From positions 12,418 through 75,285 of the forward strand of contig JAHPZI010000025.1 of the NCBI GenBank assembly GCA_019058295.1: a stretch of 62,868 nt of DNA, given 5' to 3'. Every line of letters starts with the position of its first letter. Within the stretch, counting starts at the first letter, position 1. The position numbers and the translations under genes are program-made. The stretch is from Promethearchaeota archaeon. Its GTDB lineage: Archaea > Asgardarchaeota > Lokiarchaeia > Sigyniarchaeales > SOKP01. A model generated the notes under the pieces. The model searched no databases. It was not told the DNA's origin and worked only from the letters and a program-made list of their open reading frames with translations. Below, piece by piece: positions 9,321 through 19,461 of this stretch.

Positions 9321-10427
9321 ATGAGTCTTAAATTAGAAGATGTAAAAGGTTTGGGTAAAAAAGTGGAAAATCTTAAAGAAGCGGGAATAGATTCTGTTGA
9401 AAAGTTAGCAAGTGCGAAAATAGATGATTTATTAAAAATTAAAGGTATTGGTAAAGCATCCGCCCAGAAATTTATTGATAACGCAAAGACATTATTAGGA
9501 GAACAATCAAATGAAACAGAATCCGAAGTGAAGGAATCCACCGAAGAAATTGATGAAGAGAAAAAAATTCAAGAAGAGCTTAAAAAGCTGGAAGAGAAGA
9601 AAAAACAATTAGAAGGAAAAAAAGTTGAAAAAGGAGATTTTATCTTAGTTAAAATAACGGGAAAAACTCAAAAAGGTCGAATTTTTCAAGTTTCTTCAAT
9701 TGAAGATGCTAAGAAAGCGGGAATTTACGATGAGAAGAAGGAACATATTTATACCCCCGAATTTGTAATCGTAGGAAAACCAGGATTTTTAAATGAAGGT
9801 GTTATGGAAACTATTGAAAAATTGAATTATTTTGAAAAAAAATCTGTTCGTATTCCGCCATCAAAGGGATTTGGCAAAAGAGATCCAGCAAAAATAGAAA
9901 GGATAGGAATAGCTAAATTTAGAAAATTAAATGAAGGCAAGAATCCGGAATTAGGACAAGATTTTGTTAAGAAGGATGGTCAAAGAGGAACAGTAACAAA
10001 CATTTTGCAAGGTAGAGTTATCATTGACTATAATCATCCATTAGCGGGACAAAATCTGGATTATAATATCGAAGTAATCGATAAAATTGAAGATTTTAAT
10101 GACAAGATTGAGTATTTTATGATAAATAAAGGAATTCCAAAAGCAAATATAGCCGATTTTAAAGCAAATTATAATAAGAAAGAAAAATCAATTGAATTTA
10201 CAATTCCTAAACAATTTTTATTCCAAAACTTAATAATGTTAAAGTTCGGGCTATCTATGGACTTACAAACTAATATGGGAGATGAAATTAATGATGTTAA
10301 ATTCATTGAAATTTACGAAAAAATGCCCCTACCAGCAACACCCTCAGAATCGGTTGCCTCAAAAGTTGAGGAATATAATAAACAACAAGAATCGGAACAA
10401 GAAGAAGAACAAGGCAAAAAAACTTAA
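9321..10427 (+). CDS. Long-type archaeal FKBP PPIase (SlyD-like) with N-terminal HhH domain
   Basis: IPPSKGFGKRD, IDYNHPLAGQNL; N-terminal VKGLG...IKGIGKASAQK. Confidence 0.88.
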   Translation: MSLKLEDVKGLGKKVENLKEAGIDSVEKLASAKIDDLLKIKGIGKASAQKFIDNAKTLLGEQSNETESEVKESTEEIDEEKKIQEELKKLEEKKKQLEGKKVEKGDFILVKITGKTQKGRIFQVSSIEDAKKAGIYDEKKEHIYTPEFVIVGKPGFLNEGVMETIEKLNYFEKKSVRIPPSKGFGKRDPAKIERIGIAKFRKLNEGKNPELGQDFVKKDGQRGTVTNILQGRVIIDYNHPLAGQNLDYNIEVIDKIEDFNDKIEYFMINKGIPKANIADFKANYNKKEKSIEFTIPKQFLFQNLIMLKFGLSMDLQTNMGDEINDVKFIEIYEKMPLPATPSESVASKVEEYNKQQESEQEEEQGKKT

Positions 10428-10463: not shown

Positions 10464-11456
10464 TTAAGTAACTCTAATTCTTGATACAAGTTTTTTTTTA
10501 CTCAGTTTTGCTTTTTTATATTCAGCTTTCTTAATCATATATTCATCAAATTTTAATTGAAGATCAATTTTCAATTGAGAAGCATCTTTATTCGTTTTTA
10601 GAAATTCTTTTTTTATTTTCTTGTATTTCTTCTTTGCTTTTCTAAACTCCTCTTTTCTTAATTTATATTTTTTATATTGTAATTTAATATCTTCTCTCGA
10701 CATATCAATTATATCCTTTAAGCCCAAATCTTTCAATTGTCCTTTAAACTTCTGAATCGACTCAAATTTGATTACATAGATCCCTAATTGCCGAGCAGGA
10801 ATAAGATTTACCATTTTATCGTCAATAAAAATACAATACTTTGGTTTTGTTTTTAATTTTCTTAAAACATACTTATATTTTTCCAATTCTGGTTTTCTTA
10901 TCCCAATCTCATTTGAAAGAAAAATATTATCAAATAAATCATAAAAACCTCTAAGTTCATTTAATTCCGCATGAATTTCAAATGTATTTGACATTAGACT
11001 AACTATAAATCCAGCATCATGCAAATTCTCTACTATTTCTTTCATATCTCCAGATAAATTAGCAAATTTAGAATATAACTGAAACCAAAGTTCCAAATAA
11101 TAACTAATATTTACTTTTTTCTCAGGTAAAGCACCTTCTTTTTCTTCTTTTATAGTATAATAGTATTTGTCGAGAATTTTTGTAATAAAATCTCTAGAAG
11201 AGATTATGCCTGAACCAACCTGCCTGAAGAGCTTTCTATAATACGAATTTTCTGACCGAGGGATTGTTATTTTTAAATCACTCTCAATAATATCTATTAA
11301 ATTTTTTATACAAAACGTTTGTTCAATCATCACACCCCCAAAATCAAATATGAAGTGTTTAATCCTATATAATCTAATTTTCTGAGAACCAAATACCTGT
11401 TTTATTATATTTTCTTCTTGTTTTTGAATTTCCCTTCGCATTTGAAGATAATCCAC
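10464..11456 (-). CDS. HAD phosphatase (DxGGV subtype) with Lys-rich C-terminal extension
   Basis: FDFGGVM, LMSNT, RKPE, FIDDK..N. Confidence 0.88.
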   Translation of the reverse strand: MDYLQMRREIQKQEENIIKQVFGSQKIRLYRIKHFIFDFGGVMIEQTFCIKNLIDIIESDLKITIPRSENSYYRKLFRQVGSGIISSRDFITKILDKYYYTIKEEKEGALPEKKVNISYYLELWFQLYSKFANLSGDMKEIVENLHDAGFIVSLMSNTFEIHAELNELRGFYDLFDNIFLSNEIGIRKPELEKYKYVLRKLKTKPKYCIFIDDKMVNLIPARQLGIYVIKFESIQKFKGQLKDLGLKDIIDMSREDIKLQYKKYKLRKEEFRKAKKKYKKIKKEFLKTNKDASQLKIDLQLKFDEYMIKKAEYKKAKLSKKKLVSRIRVT

Positions 11457-11485
11457 TTTTTATTTTATATATTTAAAAATTATTG

Positions 11486-12298
11486 TTAGTTTTTTAACTT
11501 CTTATATTCATTTAGTATTAGATTTCCAATTAAAGGCACAGGATCTCCTCCACACTTCCAATTAGAGAACTCAGGGAAAGAACCAGTATCAACAACTAAA
11601 TGTTTATGTGTTTTTTTTTCTACAACTATATCGAGATGTCCAAATAAGAGATTATATTGATTTTTCCATTTCATTATAATTTGTTTCATTTCCTTCGAGA
11701 GTTCCCTTCTTGTCATTTCAGAATGTTCATTTTTTAAGGGAATTTTCTCCATTGCACATATTTTATCACCAATAAAATAAACAGTATAATGTGTTCCTTC
11801 AATAAATTTCTCCAAATAGAGAATATCCTCATTTAAATTTTCAATATCACCAAAATTATAAATAACTTTAACACCTCTACTCCCGGAACCTGAAACAGGT
11901 TTTAAAATAAATGGAAAATCTTTATCCTTAAGGTTTTTTTTAATTGTTTCTGGAGTTCCATAATACCATTTTGGATATAGCAAACCCGCATTTTTTATTA
12001 ACAGATAGGCTTCAAATCTATCTTTATGTTTTTGGCTAATGTCAGTATTTGGAATAACTGGAATGCCATGTGATTCTGCGTAAAATCCAGCATAGACAAA
12101 AGGTATCTGATGCTTAGATTTTAGAATATATAAATCATTTTCAAGCATAGATTCGTTAATACATAAATTTTCTTTTGTATAAATTATAGTATTATGTCCC
12201 TTACTTTCAAAAAAGTTCTTAAGTTTACCAGTGAAATGTCCTCGTCTTTTAGATAAAATTCCAATTTTTAAACGCATTTTTATTTTATAACTATTCAA
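11486..12298 (-). CDS. ATP-grasp protein (ITPK1/RimK-like)
   Basis: ILKPVSGSGSRGV, LEKFIEG, FGHLD, VDTGSFPEF. Confidence 0.8.
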   Translation of the reverse strand: MNSYKIKMRLKIGILSKRRGHFTGKLKNFFESKGHNTIIYTKENLCINESMLENDLYILKSKHQIPFVYAGFYAESHGIPVIPNTDISQKHKDRFEAYLLIKNAGLLYPKWYYGTPETIKKNLKDKDFPFILKPVSGSGSRGVKVIYNFGDIENLNEDILYLEKFIEGTHYTVYFIGDKICAMEKIPLKNEHSEMTRRELSKEMKQIIMKWKNQYNLLFGHLDIVVEKKTHKHLVVDTGSFPEFSNWKCGGDPVPLIGNLILNEYKKLKN

Positions 12299-13149
12299 TT
12301 TCTTGTTTGTTCAATTAAAAAATCTACCATAATTCTTGGCCCATCCTTAATATAATTAAAATTAGGTGTAGAATTTATATCTGTTAAATAATACTGACCC
12401 TCTTTAGATTTAAGAAAATCTAATGATGCTACTTTTAGATCCAAAATTTTCATTGCTCTTAAAACAATTTCTTTTAATTCTGGGATCTCCTCAATTTCTC
12501 TTCTAGTTTCCATTTTGTTAGGATTAACTAATACTGGTAGTTGTTTGTAAAAATATAAATCTTCTCCAAAACCATAAACCTTGTATTCCCATTTACTTTT
12601 TATAAACATCTGATAGTATAGATATTGATATTTCTCATCTTTTCCTTCAACTTCCTCAATTGCTCTTTCATCACTTACTTTTATATGTCCATCTTCCTTT
12701 AAAATATTTGGTTGGAAAGAATATGTTTTCTGATCAATTATATTTTTTATAATATAATTTGGAAAAGGAGATTGACAATTTGAAGGGTTTAAAGAAAAAT
12801 CAGGGACGCTAATACCGCCCTTTTTTAATATAAGACTATTCATAAATCTATTAATAGATATCCAAATTCCCTTATGAGAATTTATTATTGGTATTGAAGT
12901 TTCATTTTCAATCATTCTCGTCATAGCAATCATTAATTTTCCTTTTCCTTTAACAAAAAATAGATCCACATCAAAATTTAGATTATCAATATTCAATAAA
13001 TATGACTCTTCCAAATAAATCGAAACTTTAGCTTTAGATTTTAAGATTTTTAAAAATTCGGCTACTTTATTTTCCAAATGATAACGATCTATTATGAGTC
13101 CAATCTCTTTCATTTTTCTATTTTGGCTCTTAAATTTTTTATAAGTCAC
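12295..13149 (-). CDS. ATP-grasp protein, ITPK1-like
   Basis: YQMFI...EYKVYGFG, ASLDF, YYLTDINSTPNF. Confidence 0.78.
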   Translation of the reverse strand: MTYKKFKSQNRKMKEIGLIIDRYHLENKVAEFLKILKSKAKVSIYLEESYLLNIDNLNFDVDLFFVKGKGKLMIAMTRMIENETSIPIINSHKGIWISINRFMNSLILKKGGISVPDFSLNPSNCQSPFPNYIIKNIIDQKTYSFQPNILKEDGHIKVSDERAIEEVEGKDEKYQYLYYQMFIKSKWEYKVYGFGEDLYFYKQLPVLVNPNKMETRREIEEIPELKEIVLRAMKILDLKVASLDFLKSKEGQYYLTDINSTPNFNYIKDGPRIMVDFLIEQTRN

Positions 13150-13331
13150 ATATTTTAATATTTAATAAAAGCGTTTTATTTGATTTATATAAATTTATCT
13201 ACTTCTCTTTTTACACTATTTTCATTTTGAATATATAATTTTACATAACAATGGTGTAATCTACTATATAAATAACAAATACATTTATATAACTTAATAA
13301 CTATATTTAGACAAACTAATGAGATTTTTTT

Positions 13332-14249
13332 ATGCCTAAAAAAATCATTGTTGGTTCAATTTGCAATCGGGATCTTGATATATTTGACGAGATCAAGAGA
13401 TTTTCTAAGATTAATTATGGAATCAAGTTTGTTAATCTCTTAAAAAATGGTTCTTCTTTTTCTGTGAAATATTTTAAAAAAAAGTTGAAAAAATACCAAA
13501 TTTCATTCTTAATTGTTAAATTATATTCAGAGGAAACGAATCAAAAGATTTATGATGCGTTAAATACATACGCACCCAATATTCCACGTTTAAATAGTCT
13601 AAAATCTGTTAAAACATGCGAAAGTCGCAAGGAGACATTTAAATTAGTGGAACAAAAATGTAAAAAGTTGAAGATTCCTCAATCTTTTTATTCAATAAAC
13701 ACTGCATATGAAGCAGTTTCTAAAGGAATCCCTTTAATTGTTAAGTTAGATACGCATAATATAAGAAACTTATCTAAATATGATCGGATTGTTGGTGTCG
13801 CAAGAAATCCTGACGATTTGCAAAATTTAATTAGACATTACGATATACAGAATAATTGTTTATTTTTCCAAGAATATTTAGGAAAATATGAAGACGTCTA
13901 TAAAGTATACATAATTGATCGCTATGTACAAACGATTACCTCTCAAAATCTTATACAGCAACGTAAGCATTCATCTAAAAAATTAGTACATATTAGAGTT
14001 CCTATTGATAAAGAATTTAAAAGACAAATTTTAAGAACAGGAAGAAAATTTGGAATGTCGATTTTTGGTGTAGATTATATTTTAAAGGATGGGATTCCTT
14101 ATATCGTTGATATTAATGATTTTCCTAGTTTTAGTAATATTCCGGAATCAGTGAGCATGATTTCCGAATATATATATAGATTCTGTTTAGCAAGACTAAG
14201 CCTCACCAAAATTCCTATGAGAATGAAAGTTAAGACATACACTACATAA
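13332..14249 (+). CDS. ATP-grasp protein, ITPK1-like inositol phosphate kinase
   Basis: FQEYL...VYKVYII, IFGVDYI, YIVDINDFPSF. Confidence 0.82.
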   Translation: MPKKIIVGSICNRDLDIFDEIKRFSKINYGIKFVNLLKNGSSFSVKYFKKKLKKYQISFLIVKLYSEETNQKIYDALNTYAPNIPRLNSLKSVKTCESRKETFKLVEQKCKKLKIPQSFYSINTAYEAVSKGIPLIVKLDTHNIRNLSKYDRIVGVARNPDDLQNLIRHYDIQNNCLFFQEYLGKYEDVYKVYIIDRYVQTITSQNLIQQRKHSSKKLVHIRVPIDKEFKRQILRTGRKFGMSIFGVDYILKDGIPYIVDINDFPSFSNIPESVSMISEYIYRFCLARLSLTKIPMRMKVKTYTT

Positions 14250-14280
14250 AAAGAAAGTAAATAAATACTGATTTATTAAA

Positions 14281-15372
14281 TTATCTCGTTCTTTTTCCTT
14301 CTATAAATCTTATAAGGCGTCGTTTCGCCCGAAAATCATCGAGTTGCTTTGGTGGATATTTCATGAAAAATGAACATGCTGTATGTAATACACCCCCGAC
14401 ATGTCGATCTTTAGCTATTTTTGATATTCGAATACAATCCGCAATAATTCCTGCTGAATTATTCCCATCTTCAACAAACATTGTAATATCCACTCTAACA
14501 GGAGCACCTCCAAAAATACGTCCTTCCAATCTCATATATGCCTCTTTTTGGTTCTTTAAGAATGGGATATAATCTACAGCAGATATTTGACATTCAACAG
14601 TATCTTTGTTTTTTAATTTAGCAACGACAGAGGCTGTTTTGGATTGGCGCTTTCCTTCTTCATAAAATAATTCTCCATTAGGTTTAGGAGTTAACAAATT
14701 GCAAAAGTCACTGCATCCGCCCCAATCTAATTGAATAGTACGATCCAATATTGCACCACGCATTGGAAAAAGGTTAGCTAAAGATCTATGAATGATAGTT
14801 GCTCCAATTTGTGATTTCACATCATCTCCTATTAATGAAAGTCGTGATTCTTCAGCTTTCCTTACTAAATCCGGATCTTTTGCAACATGTGATGGCATTC
14901 CACAGATCACACAAGCTCCCGCATCAAGAGCTGCCATAGCATAGAATTTTACAGCTTTATGAGCGCCTGTTGGCAGAAGAATTACTGCGACATCTATATT
15001 ACGATCTTTCATTTCTTTTACAATATCAGCTTCTTCTTGATTATCATCCACAGGAACGATGTTTTTTATATTGCTTTGTAACCCGTCCAAAATTGGACCC
15101 TTAACCACTGGCGCATCTATAAAATCTGGAGTAAATAATTTCATATTACAGTTAGGTTCAGCGAATATTGCTTCACTAAGATCTTTTCCTACTTTGTTTG
15201 CATTAACTTCTATACCTAAAACAAAATTGATATCACTAATGTTATACTGGGTGATTTCAGGTAAAATGCCAATAATTTTCTCTGGATTTTTTTTATAATT
15301 TTCAATTCCCTGTACTAAAGCAGAAGCAACGTCTCCGATCCCGATAAGAGCCACATTTATTTTGTTAGGCAT
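14281..15372 (-). CDS. ino1: myo-inositol-1-phosphate synthase
   Basis: GIGDVASALVQG, GDDVKSQIGAT, DFCNL, QSKT, EDGNNSAG, FFMKYPP. Confidence 0.95.
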   Translation of the reverse strand: MPNKINVALIGIGDVASALVQGIENYKKNPEKIIGILPEITQYNISDINFVLGIEVNANKVGKDLSEAIFAEPNCNMKLFTPDFIDAPVVKGPILDGLQSNIKNIVPVDDNQEEADIVKEMKDRNIDVAVILLPTGAHKAVKFYAMAALDAGACVICGMPSHVAKDPDLVRKAEESRLSLIGDDVKSQIGATIIHRSLANLFPMRGAILDRTIQLDWGGCSDFCNLLTPKPNGELFYEEGKRQSKTASVVAKLKNKDTVECQISAVDYIPFLKNQKEAYMRLEGRIFGGAPVRVDITMFVEDGNNSAGIIADCIRISKIAKDRHVGGVLHTACSFFMKYPPKQLDDFRAKRRLIRFIEGKRTR

Positions 15373-15494
15373 CTTATTGTTTATAATTAAATTATTATAT
15401 TTAAATCATTATGAATGAGAATAAAATTTTTAAAAGTAAAAAAAAAAGAGTAATCAATTTTAAATATTATATTAAATTTTTTTAGTTTTTCAAC

Positions 15495-17201
15495 CTAAGT
15501 TTTATGCCAAAGTTTGCGAAGGAAGTGCGCTGCCATTTTTGGTTTTCTATCTCGAGTAAATACGCCTTTATGGTTGAGTCCTTTAGCTCTTATTATGCTT
15601 TGAGATGTTTTAAAATCACACATATTCCATATATGAGCACCTACAACATAATCTTTAGATTTTAATACTTCTAAATAATTTTTTATAAATTCAACTTGAT
15701 ATTCTTCACTCCACATTTCTGGCTGTTCGGAATGGCATCCAGCAAGCGTATCTGTTCCAAATTCTGAAAGTATTAAAGGCTTTTTGTATTTACTATTTAT
15801 TTTATCCAATTCATTAGATAATAATTTACATCCTTCATCAATTTGACCGGATTGTGTATACCACCCATAATATCGATTTAAGCATATGACTTCTAAAAAT
15901 TCAAATGCTCGTTCTGAAGCTCCAACCATGCTTACTAAAGTAATTGGTCTAGTTGAATCTATATTTCTCGCAGTATCATACATCGCTCGAAAAAAATCTT
16001 TAGCTGCTATGCTTCGACTTGGTTCATTTGCAAGGCTCCACATTATAACACTTGGATGATTTTTATCCCGTTCAATTAACTCCTTAATATATCTTTGACA
16101 TAAATCCAAATGACGATCGATAATATCTTTGCTAAACGTAAGTCCAACAGCAGGTGTTTCGTCAATGATTAAAAATCCCAATCTATCTGCCATGTCCATC
16201 ATTTGTTCTGAATATGGATAATGAGAAGTACGAAATGAATTTGCTCCAATCCACCTTAATAAATCATAATCTTTAGTTATAAGTGCTGGAAGATATCCTT
16301 TTCCAACGACTGGAAAATCTTCATGTTTTGCGCAGCCTTTTAAGAAAATAGGTTTTCCATTTAGAAGTAATTGAGTCCCTTTGACCTCAATCGTACGAAT
16401 ACCCACAGATAAGGAATATTCATCAAAAACAATTCCATTATCTAAAAGTTCTACTTTCAAATCGTATAGGTTAGGATATTCTGGAGACCATAATTTAGCA
16501 TTTTCTACATTAAGAAAAATTTCAGTAGTAGCATCAAGTGATATTCTCGATTCTATTTGAATCCCATAACCCGTTAATATAGCATTAGCTTCTTTTCCTT
16601 TCACTCCATTCTTTTCTAGCAAAACCTTTACTAATCCAGTTGTGCCTTCAATAGTGGTTATTACCGTAATATCATTGATACCTTCCTTAGGTATAGCATA
16701 GAGTAAAACGGGGCGTTGGATTCCACAATATGGATAAAAATCAAAATTAGTATCTGGGTAATTCATCGTCCTTCCACTCGGAGGAACGTGCTCCTTTAAG
16801 AGATTCCCATCTACTCTAACAATTAATTTGTTTTTCTCAACTTTACATCTCTCCGTAATATCAAACTTAAAAGGTAAATGTCCTCCCTCATGTTCACCAA
16901 GCTTCTCACCATTTAACCATACATCAGATAAATAATTTATTGATCCAAATCGTAAGAATATTTTTTGGTTCTCCCATCCCCATGGAATATTAAATTCTGT
17001 TTGATACCACGCAGGTCCTAAGAAATCGCGCCCTTCGGCAAAAATTTCATTCCAACTGGCGGGTACAGCAATCGGACGGCTTCCAACTAAACCCTTTTCC
17101 CAATTTTCTGTTAAACCCTCATTTTTAAAATCAAAACGAAAATCCCAAAAGCCAGATAAATCAATACATTGACGATGTTTATTTCTTTGAGGATAAACCA
17201 T
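15495..17201 (-). CDS. uidA: Beta-glucuronidase (GH2); start re-called to ATG 17201
   Basis: VPASWN, KHED, FRTSHYPY, WSLANEP, SEFG, NHKG motif; AGGAGA upstream of MVYPQ. Confidence 0.9.
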   Translation of the reverse strand: MVYPQRNKHRQCIDLSGFWDFRFDFKNEGLTENWEKGLVGSRPIAVPASWNEIFAEGRDFLGPAWYQTEFNIPWGWENQKIFLRFGSINYLSDVWLNGEKLGEHEGGHLPFKFDITERCKVEKNKLIVRVDGNLLKEHVPPSGRTMNYPDTNFDFYPYCGIQRPVLLYAIPKEGINDITVITTIEGTTGLVKVLLEKNGVKGKEANAILTGYGIQIESRISLDATTEIFLNVENAKLWSPEYPNLYDLKVELLDNGIVFDEYSLSVGIRTIEVKGTQLLLNGKPIFLKGCAKHEDFPVVGKGYLPALITKDYDLLRWIGANSFRTSHYPYSEQMMDMADRLGFLIIDETPAVGLTFSKDIIDRHLDLCQRYIKELIERDKNHPSVIMWSLANEPSRSIAAKDFFRAMYDTARNIDSTRPITLVSMVGASERAFEFLEVICLNRYYGWYTQSGQIDEGCKLLSNELDKINSKYKKPLILSEFGTDTLAGCHSEQPEMWSEEYQVEFIKNYLEVLKSKDYVVGAHIWNMCDFKTSQSIIRAKGLNHKGVFTRDRKPKMAAHFLRKLWHKT

Positions 17202-17244
17202 ATTATTTTCTCCTTTAAATGCTACTTTGAAATTTAAATTTATA

Positions 17245-17943
17245 TTAATTTTGACTATTATCGATAAAATATATTTTCTTTCCAATTAAAATAAGTATAA
17301 TTCCAATTGCAATACCGAGTGGTACTCTAAAAAATAGCATATTGTATAGATTCCAAGTACCTGCCGGGGCTAAATAAAAGAAATAATGAAAATTCGGGTC
17401 GTATAATCCATACCATACGAAATAAAACAAGACATCTTGAGGTGCGGCTAACCAAATGATATTAAGTCCTGTAGATATACATAAGACAACTATAAATCCA
17501 TCTCTATGCTTTATCTTTTTCTCAAAAGGATTTAGAATGCTGATAGATATCGCTAAACATCTAATAGGAACTTGCAATACCCATTTAAAGAACCAATACT
17601 TTTGTAGTAATCCTGGTTGAACGATACTCCATTTCCATTCTATTAATAAAGGTGGACCAGCCCACCATGAGTGATGTCCCATTGCAACTAGGTCAACAAA
17701 AGAATCTAAAAATAGAAAAATAATTACGGCGAATATTAATTGTTTAAATGTTTTAGTACGTAAAGCTATTATTATTGAAAGAACCACCCATAATATTTCT
17801 GCGTAAGGATAAAGATCCCATGTTTCTCCTTTTCCTATATAATTAATAAAAATATTAAAAAAAGCTCCAATTGAAAGTATTATAATATAGACCGAAATTA
17901 AGCTATATTGGAAAAGGTTTGAAGATTCTTCTTTTAATTCCAT
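17245..17943 (-). CDS. Membrane protein of unknown function
   Basis: About 6 hydrophobic segments, Trp-rich. Confidence 0.7.
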   Translation of the reverse strand: MELKEESSNLFQYSLISVYIIILSIGAFFNIFINYIGKGETWDLYPYAEILWVVLSIIIALRTKTFKQLIFAVIIFLFLDSFVDLVAMGHHSWWAGPPLLIEWKWSIVQPGLLQKYWFFKWVLQVPIRCLAISISILNPFEKKIKHRDGFIVVLCISTGLNIIWLAAPQDVLFYFVWYGLYDPNFHYFFYLAPAGTWNLYNMLFFRVPLGIAIGIILILIGKKIYFIDNSQN

Positions 17944-18041
17944 TAATTAAAATAATATCATAAAGATTTAAAAAATATTTAATAAAATTCTTAAATTCAT
18001 TTAAAAGTTATATAATAAAAAAGAAAAACATATTTTATTCC

Positions 18042-18938
18042 TTGACTATGGTTAAAAAATTAGTACTTTCTGCTAAAAAAGAGCACGATGTCATTAAGAA
18101 TGTTATTAGGAAACTGAAAGTAGTCCCTGAAATCGAATTAATTCTGCACGATCCTACAGAGGATTTCCTTGATTTGGAAGATATGCAGACCCAATTTGGA
18201 GATGTTGATCTCATAATAACTAAAGTTGCTAACGATTGTTCAATTGATTTGCTCCATTTTGCAAAACTTTATAATATTCCAACTTTGCATGATGTTTACA
18301 CAGTTTTACTATGTAAAAACAAGGTTGCACTTGATCAAGCTATAAGAAAGATATTTGATAAGCATTCAGGCGATTTGGAAAATTTCCTGTTACCAAGATC
18401 ATGGACGCAATCCTTACAAAATATTAATAGATTTAAAGAATGGGCTTCTCCAAAATTACCTATTGTGTTAAAAAGTCATTACCAACACGATAAATACAAC
18501 CGTTTTAATTTTTTAGTTCGAAAAATAGATGAAATTGACAAATTCTGTAAGATATATTCAAATTTTTTATATTACAATATATATATTCAAAAATTCGTTG
18601 AAAGCGATGGTATAGAGCGAAAAATTTATGTTGTTGGTGATAAAATCTACGGTACTCAGCGGGAAAATCCAATATATTATTGGTTAAGAGAGAAACCTGA
18701 AAAAATTGATGTAGAAACATTTAAAAGGGAAAAATTCGAAGTATCTGTTGATATGCAAAATTTAGCTAAAATTCTTGCGAAAGGATTAAACCTAAGAATA
18801 TTTGGCTTTGATTTAGTTAAACCTCTTAATCAAAATAAATATTATCTAATTGATTTAAACGATTTTCCTGGTTTTAAGGGAATTAAAGATATTGATAATG
18901 AGTTAGCTGATTATTTAATAACATACGTAAATCCTTAA
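18042..18938 (+). CDS. ATP-grasp protein, ITPK1-like inositol phosphate kinase
   Basis: IQKFV...ERKIYVVGD, LRIFGFDLV, YYLIDLNDFPGF. Confidence 0.85.
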   Translation: MTMVKKLVLSAKKEHDVIKNVIRKLKVVPEIELILHDPTEDFLDLEDMQTQFGDVDLIITKVANDCSIDLLHFAKLYNIPTLHDVYTVLLCKNKVALDQAIRKIFDKHSGDLENFLLPRSWTQSLQNINRFKEWASPKLPIVLKSHYQHDKYNRFNFLVRKIDEIDKFCKIYSNFLYYNIYIQKFVESDGIERKIYVVGDKIYGTQRENPIYYWLREKPEKIDVETFKREKFEVSVDMQNLAKILAKGLNLRIFGFDLVKPLNQNKYYLIDLNDFPGFKGIKDIDNELADYLITYVNP

Positions 18939-18975
18939 GATTATAATAACTCATTTTTATTTATTTAAAACTTCT

Positions 18976-19461
18976 CTAATTTTTATCAAGAAATTTTTGT
19001 AATCCTTTCATTAAACACTCTTTTATTTCATCCCGAATTAATCTAAAACCTTCAATTCCTTTCATTGAAGGATCTTCAATATCCCCTCTCTCACCCGCAA
19101 ATTCCTTTAAGGTGAGAACTGGTTTATTATTAACTTCTTCTAATTTGAAAAGATCTTCCTTATGCTTTTCAGTAAGAGCCAAAATTAAATCTGCGTCTTG
19201 AATTAACTTTCTATGCTCTTTTTTTTTCAAATCAATAGATTCAGAAGTATCTGATAATTCTATTCCTATCTCTTTCATTACATCTTGCGCATCAATCGAT
19301 ATCAAGCAACCATCTCTTGCATTTGAAGCGATACCTCCAGATTTTACATCGATTTTTAATTTGTTTTTTGAAAAACAATCTCGTAGAAAACCCTCTACCA
19401 TACAACTTCGCGCTACGTTTACACTACATACTACTAACACAGATTTATAAGGAAAATTCAT
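18976..19461 (-). CDS. Low-molecular-weight protein tyrosine phosphatase / ArsC family
   Basis: P-loop VCSVNVARS; DIEDP acid loop. Confidence 0.9.
   Translation of the reverse strand: MNFPYKSVLVVCSVNVARSCMVEGFLRDCFSKNKLKIDVKSGGIASNARDGCLISIDAQDVMKEIGIELSDTSESIDLKKKEHRKLIQDADLILALTEKHKEDLFKLEEVNNKPVLTLKEFAGERGDIEDPSMKGIEGFRLIRDEIKECLMKGLQKFLDKN

What the first reader, a model, noticed from the sequence alone, without database searches (positions are those of the whole stretch)
10464..19461. Inositol-polyphosphate synthesis and turnover locus: ino1, four ITPK1-like kinases and phosphatases
Seen: four ATP-grasp paralogs surround ino1. Three end in D(I/L)N..P.F (DINDFPSF, DLNDFPGF, DINSTPNF) after K(V/I)Y and FG.D-type motifs. 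Established: this matches ITPK1 (KVFVVG...FGID...IDINAFPGY) rather than RimK (EVN..P), and Ino1 makes Ins3P from glucose-6-phosphate. From memory, Lokiarchaeal ITPK1-like kinases have been reported, so the core may not be new. Inference: a lipid-independent relay from Ins3P to higher InsPs, with work split among paralogs and a co-oriented HAD phosphatase (and possibly the LMW-PTP) as erasers, i.e. a prokaryotic InsP metabolism/signalling module.
Basis: partly seen in the sequence, partly recalled or inferred. Interest (0 to 1): 0.8.

Follow-up and report, generated by a model that had tools for sequence, protein, structure and literature searches.

The report
Loki archaeal inositol synthase-kinase gene cluster
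This Loki-type Asgard archaeon has its own copy of a gene cluster published in 2019 that pairs an inositol-phosphate synthase with relatives of the eukaryotic kinase ITPK1; only two of its four ATP-grasp genes are such kinases, and the other two are an apparently undescribed, tightly linked enzyme pair with no known substrate.

Summary
An ino1 gene (14281-15372) lies among four ATP-grasp genes, with a HAD phosphatase and a low-molecular-weight phosphatase nearby, and the quoted motifs are present.

P3 (13332-14249) and P4 (18042-18938) are ITPK-type. They match Pfam PF05770, their family profiles hit only ITPK structures first, and they group with canonical ITPK1s in a tree (support 100/97).

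P1 (11486-12277) and P2 (12295-13113) are different. Their folds are closest to LysX/ArgX/RimK (Z 25 and 22; ITPK1 below 19.9 and 19.5). In the tree they fall on the RimK side (94/83). They lack RimK's signature motifs and reach no RimK-family cut-off, and P1 has Gly in place of the metal-binding Asn. A complex prediction supports a P1-P2 heterodimer (0.90 against 0.00 for controls).

In 80 Loki-type genomes the order P4, ino1, P3, P2, P1, (HAD) is almost invariant. The glucuronidase and membrane genes are passengers. The LMW phosphatase is linked by general synteny only.

The core was published by Desfougeres et al. 2019 (PMC6900528). This scan has already reached the same reading on other genomes. 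This copy is a new member of a known kind; the P1/P2 pair is the open question.

The parts
10464..11456 (-). HAD-IA phosphatase, YihX-like, with motif I D38-x-G40 and a Lys-rich C-terminal tail. It is the last gene of the P2-P1-HAD unit.
   Evidence: PF00702 56.4 bits and TIGR01509 42.4 bits, both above cut-off. Best solved relatives are YihX glucose-1-phosphatase 8pno and 2b0c at 3e-10. Present after P1 in 56/72 related genomes.
11486..12298 (-). P1: a LysX/ArgX-like ATP-grasp protein. Its likely start is ATG 12277. It has a GSGS loop and FGHLD...VVDxGSFPEF, with the third metal ligand Asn replaced by an invariant Gly.
   Evidence: ATP-grasp_3 34 bits and Ins134 24.3 bits. The family alignment gives the invariant residues. 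Model pLDDT is 92, and VIA gives Z 25.3 to LysX/ArgX with no ITPK1 in the top 50. The tree places it with RimK and P2 at 94/83. It lies next to P2 in 76/76 genomes.
12295..13149 (-). P2: a divergent ATP-grasp protein, likely starting at 13113 (272 aa). It has a DxN motif (D257, N259) and no Gly-rich loop. It is the first gene of the P2-P1-HAD unit.
   Evidence: Only weak Ddl_C and RimK Pfam hits. The best PDB hit of the family profile is ArgX at 6.6e-5, with no ITPK hit at E up to 1. Model pLDDT is 86. VIA gives Z 22.4 to RimK/ArgX, 20.9 to PPIP5K2 and 19.5 to ITPK1. In the phylum sample it was found only in one Loki family.
13332..14249 (+). P3: an ITPK-type ATP-grasp kinase, divergent from P2 and convergent with ino1.
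   Evidence: PF05770 scores 21.8 bits here (23.7 in the six-frame search), and most orthologues carry PF05770. The top 10 PDB hits of the family profile are all ITPKs, best AtITPK4 at 2.9e-6. It groups with canonical ITPK1 at 100/97. It lies next to P2 in 72/72 genomes.
14281..15372 (-). ino1: myo-inositol-3-phosphate synthase, the only one found in this 79%-complete genome.
   Evidence: PF01658 71.7 bits. 269 bits, 4e-79, full length to M. tuberculosis Ino1 1GR0. Single hit in the genome.
15495..17285 (-). GH2 beta-glucuronidase-like gene (likely start near 17201). It is a variable passenger between ino1 and P4.
   Evidence: NF007538 beta-glucuronidase 600 bits, above the 544 cut-off. It sits between ino1 and P4 in only 2 of the 80 loci (L063, L065) and in the two same-genus genomes G002 and G006; elsewhere it is absent or lies beyond FKBP.
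17245..17943 (-). Multi-pass membrane protein with no family match; a passenger alongside GH2.
   Evidence: No Pfam or NCBIfam hit. No BLAST match to it was returned in any of the 92 related loci compared.
18042..18938 (+). P4: the clearest ITPK1 homologue (likely start 18048), with K144, K194, D257 and D271-x-N273-D-F-P-G.
   Evidence: PF05770 50.4 bits. The family profile hits ZmITPK1 7tn6 at 2.6e-17 over residues 64-289. It groups with canonical ITPK1 at 100/97. It is kept next to the FKBP gene even in genomes that lack the ino1-P3-P2-P1 block.
18976..19461 (-). Low-molecular-weight phosphotyrosine-phosphatase-type enzyme (C12-x5-R18-S, D130-P131). A neighbour by synteny only.
   Evidence: PF01451 71.6 bits; the arsenate-reductase and Wzb models score far below their cut-offs. 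It is near P4 in 47/52 genomes, but the unrelated genes beyond it are conserved in the same way.

Best explanation
This is the Lokiarchaeial ino1/ITPK cluster.

Ino1 makes inositol 3-phosphate from glucose 6-phosphate (established for the family). P3 and P4 are ITPK-type ATP-grasp kinases that most likely phosphorylate Ins3P and lower inositol phosphates stepwise, in a lipid-independent route. This is inferred from homology and from published work on ITPK1 and LcIKC; it was not shown here.

P2 and P1 are read as one unit with the HAD gene. They are a separate, lineage-restricted pair of LysX/RimK-like ATP-grasp proteins that probably work as a heterodimer (predicted only). Because they are gained and lost together with ino1 and P3, they probably act on an inositol-derived substrate. 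Their chemistry (phosphotransfer or ligation) is unknown.

The YihX-like HAD enzyme probably removes a sugar- or cyclitol-phosphate group from an intermediate or product of that unit.

The beta-glucuronidase, the membrane protein and the LMW-PTP are neighbours, not demonstrated parts of the pathway.
For: - Ino1 identity.
- P4 and P3 as ITPK family: Pfam, orthologues carrying PF05770, family profiles hitting ITPK structures first, and a careful ML tree that groups them with nine two-domain canonical ITPK1s at UFBoot 100 / SH-aLRT 97.
- Published precedent: four Lokiarchaeum ITPK1 homologues flank IPS genes, and LcIKC partly restores InsP6 in yeast plc1-delta. The paper reports (abstract and a section heading) that ITPK1 uses Ins3P (PMC6900528).
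- Module coherence: the order P4, ino1, P3, P2, P1, (HAD) holds in 80 genomes. In sister genera P4 and the FKBP gene are adjacent with the whole ino1-P3-P2-P1-HAD block missing, and those genomes have no P3.
- The P2 stop and the P1 start are 17 nt apart.
- P1 and P2 are not ordinary RimK ligases. No RimK, LysX, MptN or CofF cut-off is reached, and the RimK motifs are absent while Lys and DxN-type residues are shared with ITPK1.
- Heterodimer: ipSAE 0.90 against a best control of 0.00. That mark was reached by 58 of 80 solved complexes and 2 of 110 mismatched pairs. The runs agree in at least 93% of contacts and the partner's pLDDT is at least 87.
- No IPK-family or IPPK gene was found in this genome, so the ATP-grasp genes are the only candidate inositol kinases (the genome is 79% complete, and the IPPK model matched none of the control genomes either, so that blank is weak).
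Against: - No activity was measured for any of these proteins, and no RNA data were found.
- P3 aligns to solved ITPKs only over its C-terminal third.
- A 100%-complete sister genome (G016) keeps P4 but has no detectable inositol-phosphate synthase, so P4 does not strictly depend on de novo Ins3P.
- Conserved order among related genomes is partly plain vertical inheritance; unrelated flanking genes are conserved too.
- The heterodimer pass may reflect the model's memory of solved LysX, ArgX and RimK homo-oligomers, and homodimers could not be tested.
- P1 lacks the Asn metal ligand and the Lys equivalent to ITPK1 K199, so it may be non-catalytic.
Confidence: 0.6

Rival explanations
1. One reading: all four ATP-grasp proteins are inositol-phosphate kinases that share the ring positions among them. 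In this version P1/P2 supply steps that ITPK-type enzymes cannot, and HAD (and perhaps the LMW-PTP) act as erasers.
For: All four share with ITPK1, and not with RimK, the strand Lys, the Asp-type metal ligand and the FP(x)F motif, and all lack RimK's nucleophile-binding W(K/R)(T/S)N...GG motif. The P2 fold matches the ATP-grasp inositol pyrophosphate kinase PPIP5K2 nearly as well as RimK (Z 20.9 against 22.4). Nine of 23 P1-family members touch PF05770. The AU test does not reject P1 and P2 on the ITPK side (p 0.098). No IPK or IPPK was found.
Against: The tree places P1 and P2 with RimK-family proteins (94/83), across a 100/97 branch from the ITPKs. The P1 fold is clearly LysX/ArgX-like (Z 25.3, rmsd 2.3 A over 250 residues), with no ITPK1 among the top 50. 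The P2 profile finds no ITPK structure at E up to 1. P1 lacks the Asn ligand and the K199 equivalent.
Confidence: 0.2
2. P2-P1 is a ligase, using ATP-grasp acyl-phosphate chemistry. Together with Ino1 and the HAD phosphatase it builds an inositol-containing small molecule such as a solute, a thiol-like cofactor or a head-group precursor. P3 and P4 are a separate story.
For: The nearest folds and the tree neighbours of P1 and P2 are carboxylate-amine ligases. The pattern of a synthase, a phosphatase and an ATP-dependent ligase recalls inositol-conjugate pathways such as mycothiol (from general knowledge, not tested). The best bacterial/archaeal model for this Ino1 is the mycothiol-type INO1, at 289 bits and below its cut-off. 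A HAD sugar-phosphatase is in the same transcription unit.
Against: There is no glycosyltransferase, amino-acid-supplying gene or small LysW-like carrier ORF in the locus. The RimK and LysX substrate motifs are absent. P3, an ITPK-type kinase, is always adjacent (72/72).
Confidence: 0.15
3. The arrangement is inherited gene order with no shared pathway, and the ATP-grasp genes serve unrelated functions.
For: Unrelated genes (FKBP, an isochorismatase-family gene, an unknown gene) are conserved in the same order. P4 persists without ino1 in some genomes.
Against: The ino1-P3-P2-P1-(HAD) block is present or absent as a unit between fixed flanks. P2 and P1 are 17 nt apart and always adjacent. The published Lokiarchaeum loci show the same kinase-synthase pairing.
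Confidence: 0.05

Closest known systems
Lokiarchaeum LcIKA-LcIKD / IPS loci (Desfougeres et al. 2019, PNAS, PMC6900528)
   Same: Loki-type archaeon. ITPK1 homologues flank an inositol-phosphate synthase, which matches the P4, ino1, P3 arrangement seen here and in about 70 related genomes. The proposed role is also the same: a lipid-independent route from Ins3P.
   Different: This is a different genome. The paper describes 'two pairs' of kinase genes flanking two IPS genes on separate contigs. That wording fits P3- and P4-type genes best. I could not check whether the P1/P2 types were among LcIKA-D, because no accession numbers or supplements are held. In the parts of the paper I read (abstract, the ITPK1 section and text searches for archaea, Asgard and LcIK), the HAD gene, the P2-P1 pair and its predicted heterodimer are not mentioned.
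Eukaryotic ITPK1 and ITPK4 (PF05770; PDB 2Q7D/2QB5, 7TN6, 8OXE, 1Z2N, 7PUP)
   Same: P3 and P4 share the ATP-grasp kinase core, the FG.D...DxN(D/A)FP(G/S)(F/Y) metal site and the K59 and K199 equivalents, and they group with these enzymes in the tree. Plant ITPK4 carries a fused HAD-like domain (PMC7614388); here a HAD enzyme is a neighbouring gene.
   Different: The archaeal proteins are shorter (about 300 aa). They lack the long insert after the R212 region, and the Pfam N-domain model PF17927 does not detect them. The HAD here looks catalytically intact, whereas the ITPK4 HAD-like domain lacks several signature motifs.
LysX / ArgX / RimK amino-group-carrier and poly-glutamate ligases (PDB 5K2M, 3VPB, 3VPD, 7QYS)
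   Same: They are the best fold matches for P1 (Z 25.3-23) and P2 (Z 22.4-21), with similar size (about 270-290 aa). The predicted P1-P2 interface is between the N-terminal domains.
   Different: P1 and P2 score 29-42 bits against the RimK-family, LysX and MptN cut-offs of 143-350 bits. They have Lys for Arg, Asp for Glu in the metal motif, and no W(K/R)(T/S)N...GG motif. There is no LysW-like ORF nearby. The genome has its own true RimK-family gene elsewhere (contig 8, 143.6 bits).
PPIP5K / Vip1 / Asp1 kinase domain (PDB 3T9B, 8E1H, 9GR8)
   Same: An ATP-grasp inositol (pyro)phosphate kinase with a RimK-like fold. It matches P2 at Z 20.9-19.5, between RimK and ITPK1.
   Different: There is no sequence-level match from the P2 profile, no phosphatase domain, and the substrate here is unknown.

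Membership tests
ITPK (Ins134_P3_kin, PF05770) | P4 and P3: Pfam PF05770 at or above the gathering score, and family profiles that hit solved ITPKs first | tested here: met
   P4 scores 50.4 bits (cut-off 23), and its profile hits ZmITPK1 at 2.6e-17. P3 scores 21.8 bits here and 23.7 in the six-frame search; most orthologues carry PF05770; the profile's top 10 PDB hits are all ITPKs.
ITPK (Ins134_P3_kin, PF05770) | P1 and P2: the same sequence criteria | tested here: not met
   P2 has no PF05770 hit; in its family 5/23 members match at E no better than 0.016, against RimK in 17/23; its profile finds no ITPK in the PDB at E up to 1. P1 scores 24.3 bits, but ATP-grasp_3 is better at 34; ITPK appears at E 0.03, rank 19.
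ITPK (Ins134_P3_kin, PF05770) | Groups with canonical two-domain ITPK1 proteins in a maximum-likelihood tree | tested here: met
   This holds for P3 and P4: one side of a branch with UFBoot 100 / SH-aLRT 97, together with 9 proteins, seven of which carry both PF05770 and PF17927 and two PF05770 alone. P1 and P2 lie on the other side with RimK-family proteins (94/83). An AU test that forces them to the ITPK side gives delta lnL 12.1 and p 0.098, so the result is inconclusive for P1 and P2.
ITPK (Ins134_P3_kin, PF05770) | Metal-site motif D ... D-x-N followed by FP(G/S)(F/Y) | tested here: met
   P2 has D244, D257, N259. P3 has D248, D260, N262. P4 has D257, D271, N273. P1 does not meet it: D223, D237, G239, with Gly in every family copy in which the motif was found (70 of 80).
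ITPK (Ins134_P3_kin, PF05770) | ATP-dependent phosphorylation of inositol phosphates | not testable with these tools
   Only published data exist: LcIKC partly rescues InsP6 in yeast plc1-delta (PMC6900528).
RimK / LysX / MptN / CofF alpha-L-glutamate ligase family (TIGR00768, PF08443) | Curated HMM cut-offs | tested here: not met
   On TIGR00768 the scores are P1 37.4, P2 36.6 and P4 31.7 bits, against a cut-off of 143.4. The LysX, MptN and CofF models are all far below their cut-offs. On PF08443, P2 scores 17.3 and P3 16.4, below 21. P4 scores 30.8 but is outscored by PF05770.
RimK / LysX / MptN / CofF alpha-L-glutamate ligase family (TIGR00768, PF08443) | Signature residues: strand Arg, RDxR, W(K/R)(T/S)N...G(G/A), ExN | tested here: not met
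   I aligned the four with 18 Asgard RimK-family proteins (104-145 bits on PF08443). None of P1-P4 has these residues; they carry Lys and Asp instead.
RimK / LysX / MptN / CofF alpha-L-glutamate ligase family (TIGR00768, PF08443) | Nearest solved fold | tested here: met
   P1: Z 25.3, rmsd 2.3 A, 250 residues to LysX/ArgX 5k2m. P2: Z 22.4, rmsd 3.1 A, 254 residues to RimK 7qys. This shows fold likeness only. No model was made for P3 or P4 to calibrate the comparison.
myo-Inositol-3-phosphate synthase (PF01658 / PF07994) | Family HMM above cut-off and a full-length match to a solved enzyme | tested here: met
   PF01658 scores 71.7 bits (cut-off 27). 1GR0 matches at 4e-79 over residues 4-359. 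The mycothiol-type equivalog TIGR03450 scores 289 against 638, so that specific subtype is not met.
HAD-IA phosphatase, YihX-like | HAD family HMMs above cut-off with the catalytic motifs present | tested here: met
   PF00702 56.4 and TIGR01509 42.4, both above cut-off. Motif I is D38-F-G40, as in YihX; a DD motif IV is present. Best PDB relatives are YihX and 2b0c. Substrate was not testable.
Low-molecular-weight phosphotyrosine phosphatase (PF01451) | Family HMM, the C-x5-R-(S/T) loop and the D-P general acid | tested here: met
   71.6 bits (cut-off 23.2), with C12...R18-S19 and D130-P131. The arsenate-reductase models are far below cut-off. Activity on inositol phosphates was not testable.

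The most novel reading that the evidence does not exclude
P2 and P1 form a heterodimeric ATP-grasp enzyme of a family not yet described, and it acts on inositol phosphates. It might phosphorylate positions that ITPK-type enzymes cannot, or make a pyrophosphate. With Ino1, P3 and P4, some Loki archaea would then build highly phosphorylated inositols without any IPK, IPMK or IPPK enzyme. That would be a prokaryotic inositol-polyphosphate pathway with a new enzyme class, in the lineage closest to eukaryotes.
Probability: 0.2. Interest if true: 0.75.

Novelty: new member of a known kind. Interest (0 to 1): 0.35.

Why it matters
Inositol polyphosphates were long regarded as a eukaryotic hallmark. 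The Lokiarchaeal ITPK1 homologues are the main evidence that the soluble synthesis route predates eukaryotes.

This copy adds little to that core claim. It does sharpen the anatomy in three ways:
- Only two of the four ATP-grasp genes are ITPK-type.
- The ino1-P3-P2-P1-(HAD) block behaves as one gain-or-loss unit, and in the sample searched it is confined to part of one Loki family.
- The block contains an apparently undescribed enzyme pair.

If that pair acts on inositol phosphates, it would define the missing steps of an archaeal pathway. If it is a ligase, ino1 in these archaea feeds a different product, and the 'ancestral signalling module' reading would weaken.

Tried and rejected
I used the search for related loci with my own ORF and BLAST mapping instead.
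- No RNA holder was listed for window:11486-15372, so read laying was not used and nothing can be said about expression.
- The supplementary files of PMC6900528 are not held, and the main text gives no accession numbers. LcIKA-D therefore could not be mapped onto P1-P4.
- The ESM Atlas look-ups for P1 and P2 returned mixed RimK, Ins134 and unnamed clusters and did not discriminate.
- Foldseek ranking alone did not separate RimK, PPIP5K and ITPK1 for P2. The VIA Z-scores gave a clearer order.
- hhalign probabilities of 99% between the P1, P2 or P3 families and the P4 family show only shared ATP-grasp ancestry, so I did not use them for family assignment.
- I read the Bacteroides inositol-lipid cluster paper (PMC9246714) for an ATP-grasp precedent and found none.
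- I looked for a small LysW-like carrier ORF in the intergenic regions and found none.

Full report
**What is there.** The window is part of contig 25 of a 3.2-Mb, 79%-complete Loki-type Asgard MAG. Between 10464 and 19461 lie nine ORFs:
- HAD (-)
- P1 (-)
- P2 (-)
- P3 (+)
- ino1 (-)
- a GH2 gene (-)
- a membrane protein (-)
- P4 (+)
- an LMW-PTP (-)

Pfam and NCBIfam gave the following.
- HAD: PF00702 at 56 bits.
- P1: ATP-grasp_3 at 34 bits and Ins134_P3_kin at 24.3.
- P2: only weak Ddl_C and RimK hits.
- P3: Ins134_P3_kin at 21.8, just below the cut-off of 23.
- ino1: PF01658 at 71.7.
- GH2: the beta-glucuronidase equivalog at 600 bits, above its 544 cut-off.
- P4: Ins134_P3_kin at 50.4.
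- LMW-PTP: PF01451 at 71.6.

The fourth ATP-grasp gene, P1, reads VVDTGSFPEF instead of DxN.

**Ino1 and the accessory enzymes.** Ino1 aligns over its full length to M. tuberculosis inositol-3-phosphate synthase (269 bits, 4e-79). It is the only such gene found in the genome.

The HAD protein is YihX-like, with motif I D-x-G. Its best solved relatives are glucose-1-phosphatase YihX and 2b0c.

A canonical IMPase-family gene lies elsewhere, on contig 19. No IPK-family or IPPK gene was found, though the genome is incomplete and the IPPK model matched none of the control genomes either.

**P3 and P4 are ITPK-type.** Single-sequence searches of the PDB put ITPKs first for both. Family profiles strengthen this. 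The P4 family hits maize ITPK1 at 2.6e-17 over residues 64-289. The ten best hits of the P3 family are all ITPKs, best AtITPK4 at 2.9e-6, although only the C-terminal third aligns. Most P3 orthologues carry PF05770 in the precomputed annotation.

**P1 and P2 are something else.** Both families are well conserved in Promethearchaeota MAGs, where sources name them 'RimK family ligase' or 'ATP-grasp domain protein'.
- Pfam by member: the P2 family matches RimK in 17/23, Ddl_C in 19/23 and Ins134 in 5/23. The P1 family matches ATP-grasp_3 in 23/23 and Ins134 in 9/23.
- Profile against the PDB: the best hit for P2 is ArgX at 6.6e-5, with no ITPK at E up to 1. For P1 the best hits are PurK and ArgX, with ITPK at 0.03.
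- AlphaFold models are confident (pLDDT 86 for P2 and 92 for P1).
- VIA Z-scores for P1: LysX/ArgX 25.3-24.5 (rmsd 2.3-2.6 A over about 250 residues), RimK 23, and no ITPK1 in the top 50, which ends at Z 19.9.
- VIA Z-scores for P2: RimK/ArgX/LysX 22.4-21, PPIP5K2 20.9, ITPK1 19.5.

**Tree.** I combined the following 72 rows:
- 8 members of each of the P1, P2 and P3 families;
- 11 P4-family and related proteins;
- 9 canonical ITPK1s, seven of which have both PF05770 and PF17927;
- 10 other PF05770-matching proteins;
- 18 true RimK-family proteins taken from Asgard genomes.

The careful IQ-TREE run (LG+C20, 72 rows by 306 columns) puts P3, the P4 core and the canonical ITPK1s on one side of a branch with UFBoot 100 / SH-aLRT 97. 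P1, P2 and the RimK family form a group on the other side (94/83), and P1+P2 as sisters is weak (61/24). An AU test that forces P1 and P2 to the ITPK side costs 12.1 log-likelihood units with p 0.098, so that placement is not rejected.

It is therefore approached for P1 and P2 and clearly not met for P3 and P4.

**Residue-level evidence points the other way for P1 and P2.** In the same alignment the RimK-family rows have an Arg on the hhhR strand, RDxR, W(K/R)(T/S)N...G(G/A) and ExN. All four proteins of this locus have Lys on that strand, lack the W..N..GG motif, and use Asp in the last metal motif, as ITPK1 does. P2, P3 and P4 also have the Lys that matches ITPK1 K199; P1 has Thr there.

None of the four approaches the NCBIfam cut-offs for RimK, LysX, MptN or CofF. 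The genome has its own genuine RimK-family gene on contig 8 (143.6 bits).

P1 has an invariant Gly where the metal-binding Asn should be, and it keeps a GSGS loop that the other three lack.

My reading is that P1 and P2 are two separate, divergent families in the RimK/LysX/PPIP5K/ITPK neighbourhood of the ATP-grasp superfamily. They are not members of either named family.

**Gene order across genomes.** Twelve relatives were fetched by handle. Eighty species-level loci were found with the P2 profile, all Promethearchaeota-type apart from some odd NCBI labels. They show the order PTP, P4, [0-2 variable genes], ino1, P3, P2, P1, (HAD), FKBP. The counts, taken where enough flank is available, are:
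- P1 76/76
- P3 72/72
- ino1 68/70
- HAD 56/72
- P4 within 10 kb 50/52
- PTP 47/52

The P2 stop and the P1 ATG are 17 nt apart here.

GH2 plus the membrane gene lies between ino1 and P4 only in 2 of the 80 loci (L063, L065) and in the two same-genus genomes G002 and G006. In more distant genomes GH2 lies beyond FKBP or is absent.

In five genomes of sister genera, P4 sits directly beside the FKBP gene or close to it, with no ino1, P3, P2, P1 or HAD between them. The P3 profile finds only P4 there. Four of these genomes have another type of synthase elsewhere, and one (G016, 100% complete) has none.

In an even sample of 150 genomes of the phylum, P2 was found only in the window's own family (15/25) and in none of the 125 others. 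P4 is somewhat wider (18/24 in the family, with weak hits beyond).

The block ino1-P3-P2-P1-(HAD) therefore behaves as one unit, while P4 has its own older position. The LMW-PTP is conserved together with an isochorismatase-family gene and an unknown gene. That pattern is general synteny, not a specific link.

**P1-P2 complex.** The two family alignments were folded together. The ipSAE was 0.90, against 0.00 for the best of three controls. That mark was reached by 58 of 80 solved complexes and 2 of 110 mismatched pairs. The runs agree in at least 93% of contacts, and the partner's pLDDT is at least 87.

The interface is pseudo-symmetric between the N-terminal domains (P2 residues 47-54, 71-82, 102-110 and 118-128; P1 residues 42-48, 65-76, 95-99 and 110-123). 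Related ATP-grasp ligases are solved as homo-oligomers, so this pass may reflect likeness rather than show a true heterodimer. Homodimers could not be tested.

**Comparison with the literature.** Desfougeres et al. 2019 (PMC6900528) reported four ITPK1 homologues in Lokiarchaeum (LcIKA-D), 'two pairs' flanking two IPS genes on contigs from Spang et al. They reported partial restoration of InsP6 in yeast plc1-delta by LcIKC. They also state (abstract and section heading) that ITPK1 phosphorylates Ins3P. Later papers cite this as the archaeal origin of ITPK.

The P4, ino1, P3 arrangement found here is what that description predicts. I could not verify whether P1/P2-type genes were included.

Plant ITPK4 has a fused HAD-like N-terminal domain (PMC7614388). 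That is an interesting parallel to the separate HAD gene here, but no more than a parallel.

**Earlier notes of this scan.** These notes reached the same reading on several other Loki genomes. One of them claims the cluster is near-universal in Asgard archaea, which my sample does not support for P2.

**Verdict.** The locus is a new member of a known, published kind. The open and moderately interesting part is the P2-P1 pair, with HAD: it is always tied to ino1 and P3, is predicted to be a heterodimer, has one subunit with an altered metal site, and its chemistry is unknown.

Noticed in passing
window 15495-17943: A beta-glucuronidase equivalog (NF007538, 600 bits, above cut-off) and a membrane protein with no family match lie between ino1 and P4. 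This holds only in 2 of the 80 loci and in the two same-genus genomes G002 and G006; elsewhere the GH2 gene lies beyond the FKBP gene or is absent. A UidA-like enzyme in an Asgard archaeon is unusual in itself.
   Followed up: partly
L133 (DATKTW010000070.1), whole locus: A contig labelled 'Candidatus Nanopelagicaceae bacterium' carries the full Loki order P4, ino1, P3, P2, P1, FKBP, GH2, with P2 at 56% identity. The shared flanks suggest a mis-binned Loki contig rather than gene transfer.
   Followed up: no
L016 / L088 (G001:C9, isolate LW40_45): Three tandem ino1-like genes (34%, 40% and 81% identity to the window's Ino1) stand where other genomes have one. The two divergent copies may have other cyclitol-synthase functions; the second-best PDB hit for the window's Ino1 is a five-membered-cyclitol-phosphate synthase (6k96).
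   Followed up: no
G016 (sister genus, 100% complete): This genome keeps a P4 orthologue but has no detectable inositol-phosphate synthase (PF01658), so P4 can exist without de novo Ins3P.
   Followed up: partly
window 10464-10700 (HAD C-terminus): The Lys-rich tail of the HAD protein (about 80 aa) is covered in same-genus orthologues (97-99% query coverage) but not in the next genus (71-75%), so the tail is not a conserved part of the enzyme. Some genomes (L062, L064, L065) have two tandem HAD copies.
   Followed up: partly
window 13113-13149, 12277-12298, 18042-18048, 17201-17285: The mechanical ORF starts (GTG or TTG) of P2, P1, P4 and GH2 are probably too far upstream. Homologues begin at M13 (P2), at the ATG at 12277 (P1), at the ATG at 18048 (P4) and near residue 29 (GH2). 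With the later GH2 start, the apparent overlap between GH2 and the membrane gene disappears.
   Followed up: partly
window 9321-10427: An FKBP-type prolyl isomerase with an N-terminal helix-hairpin-helix domain is the fixed flank of the cluster in nearly all related genomes.
   Followed up: no
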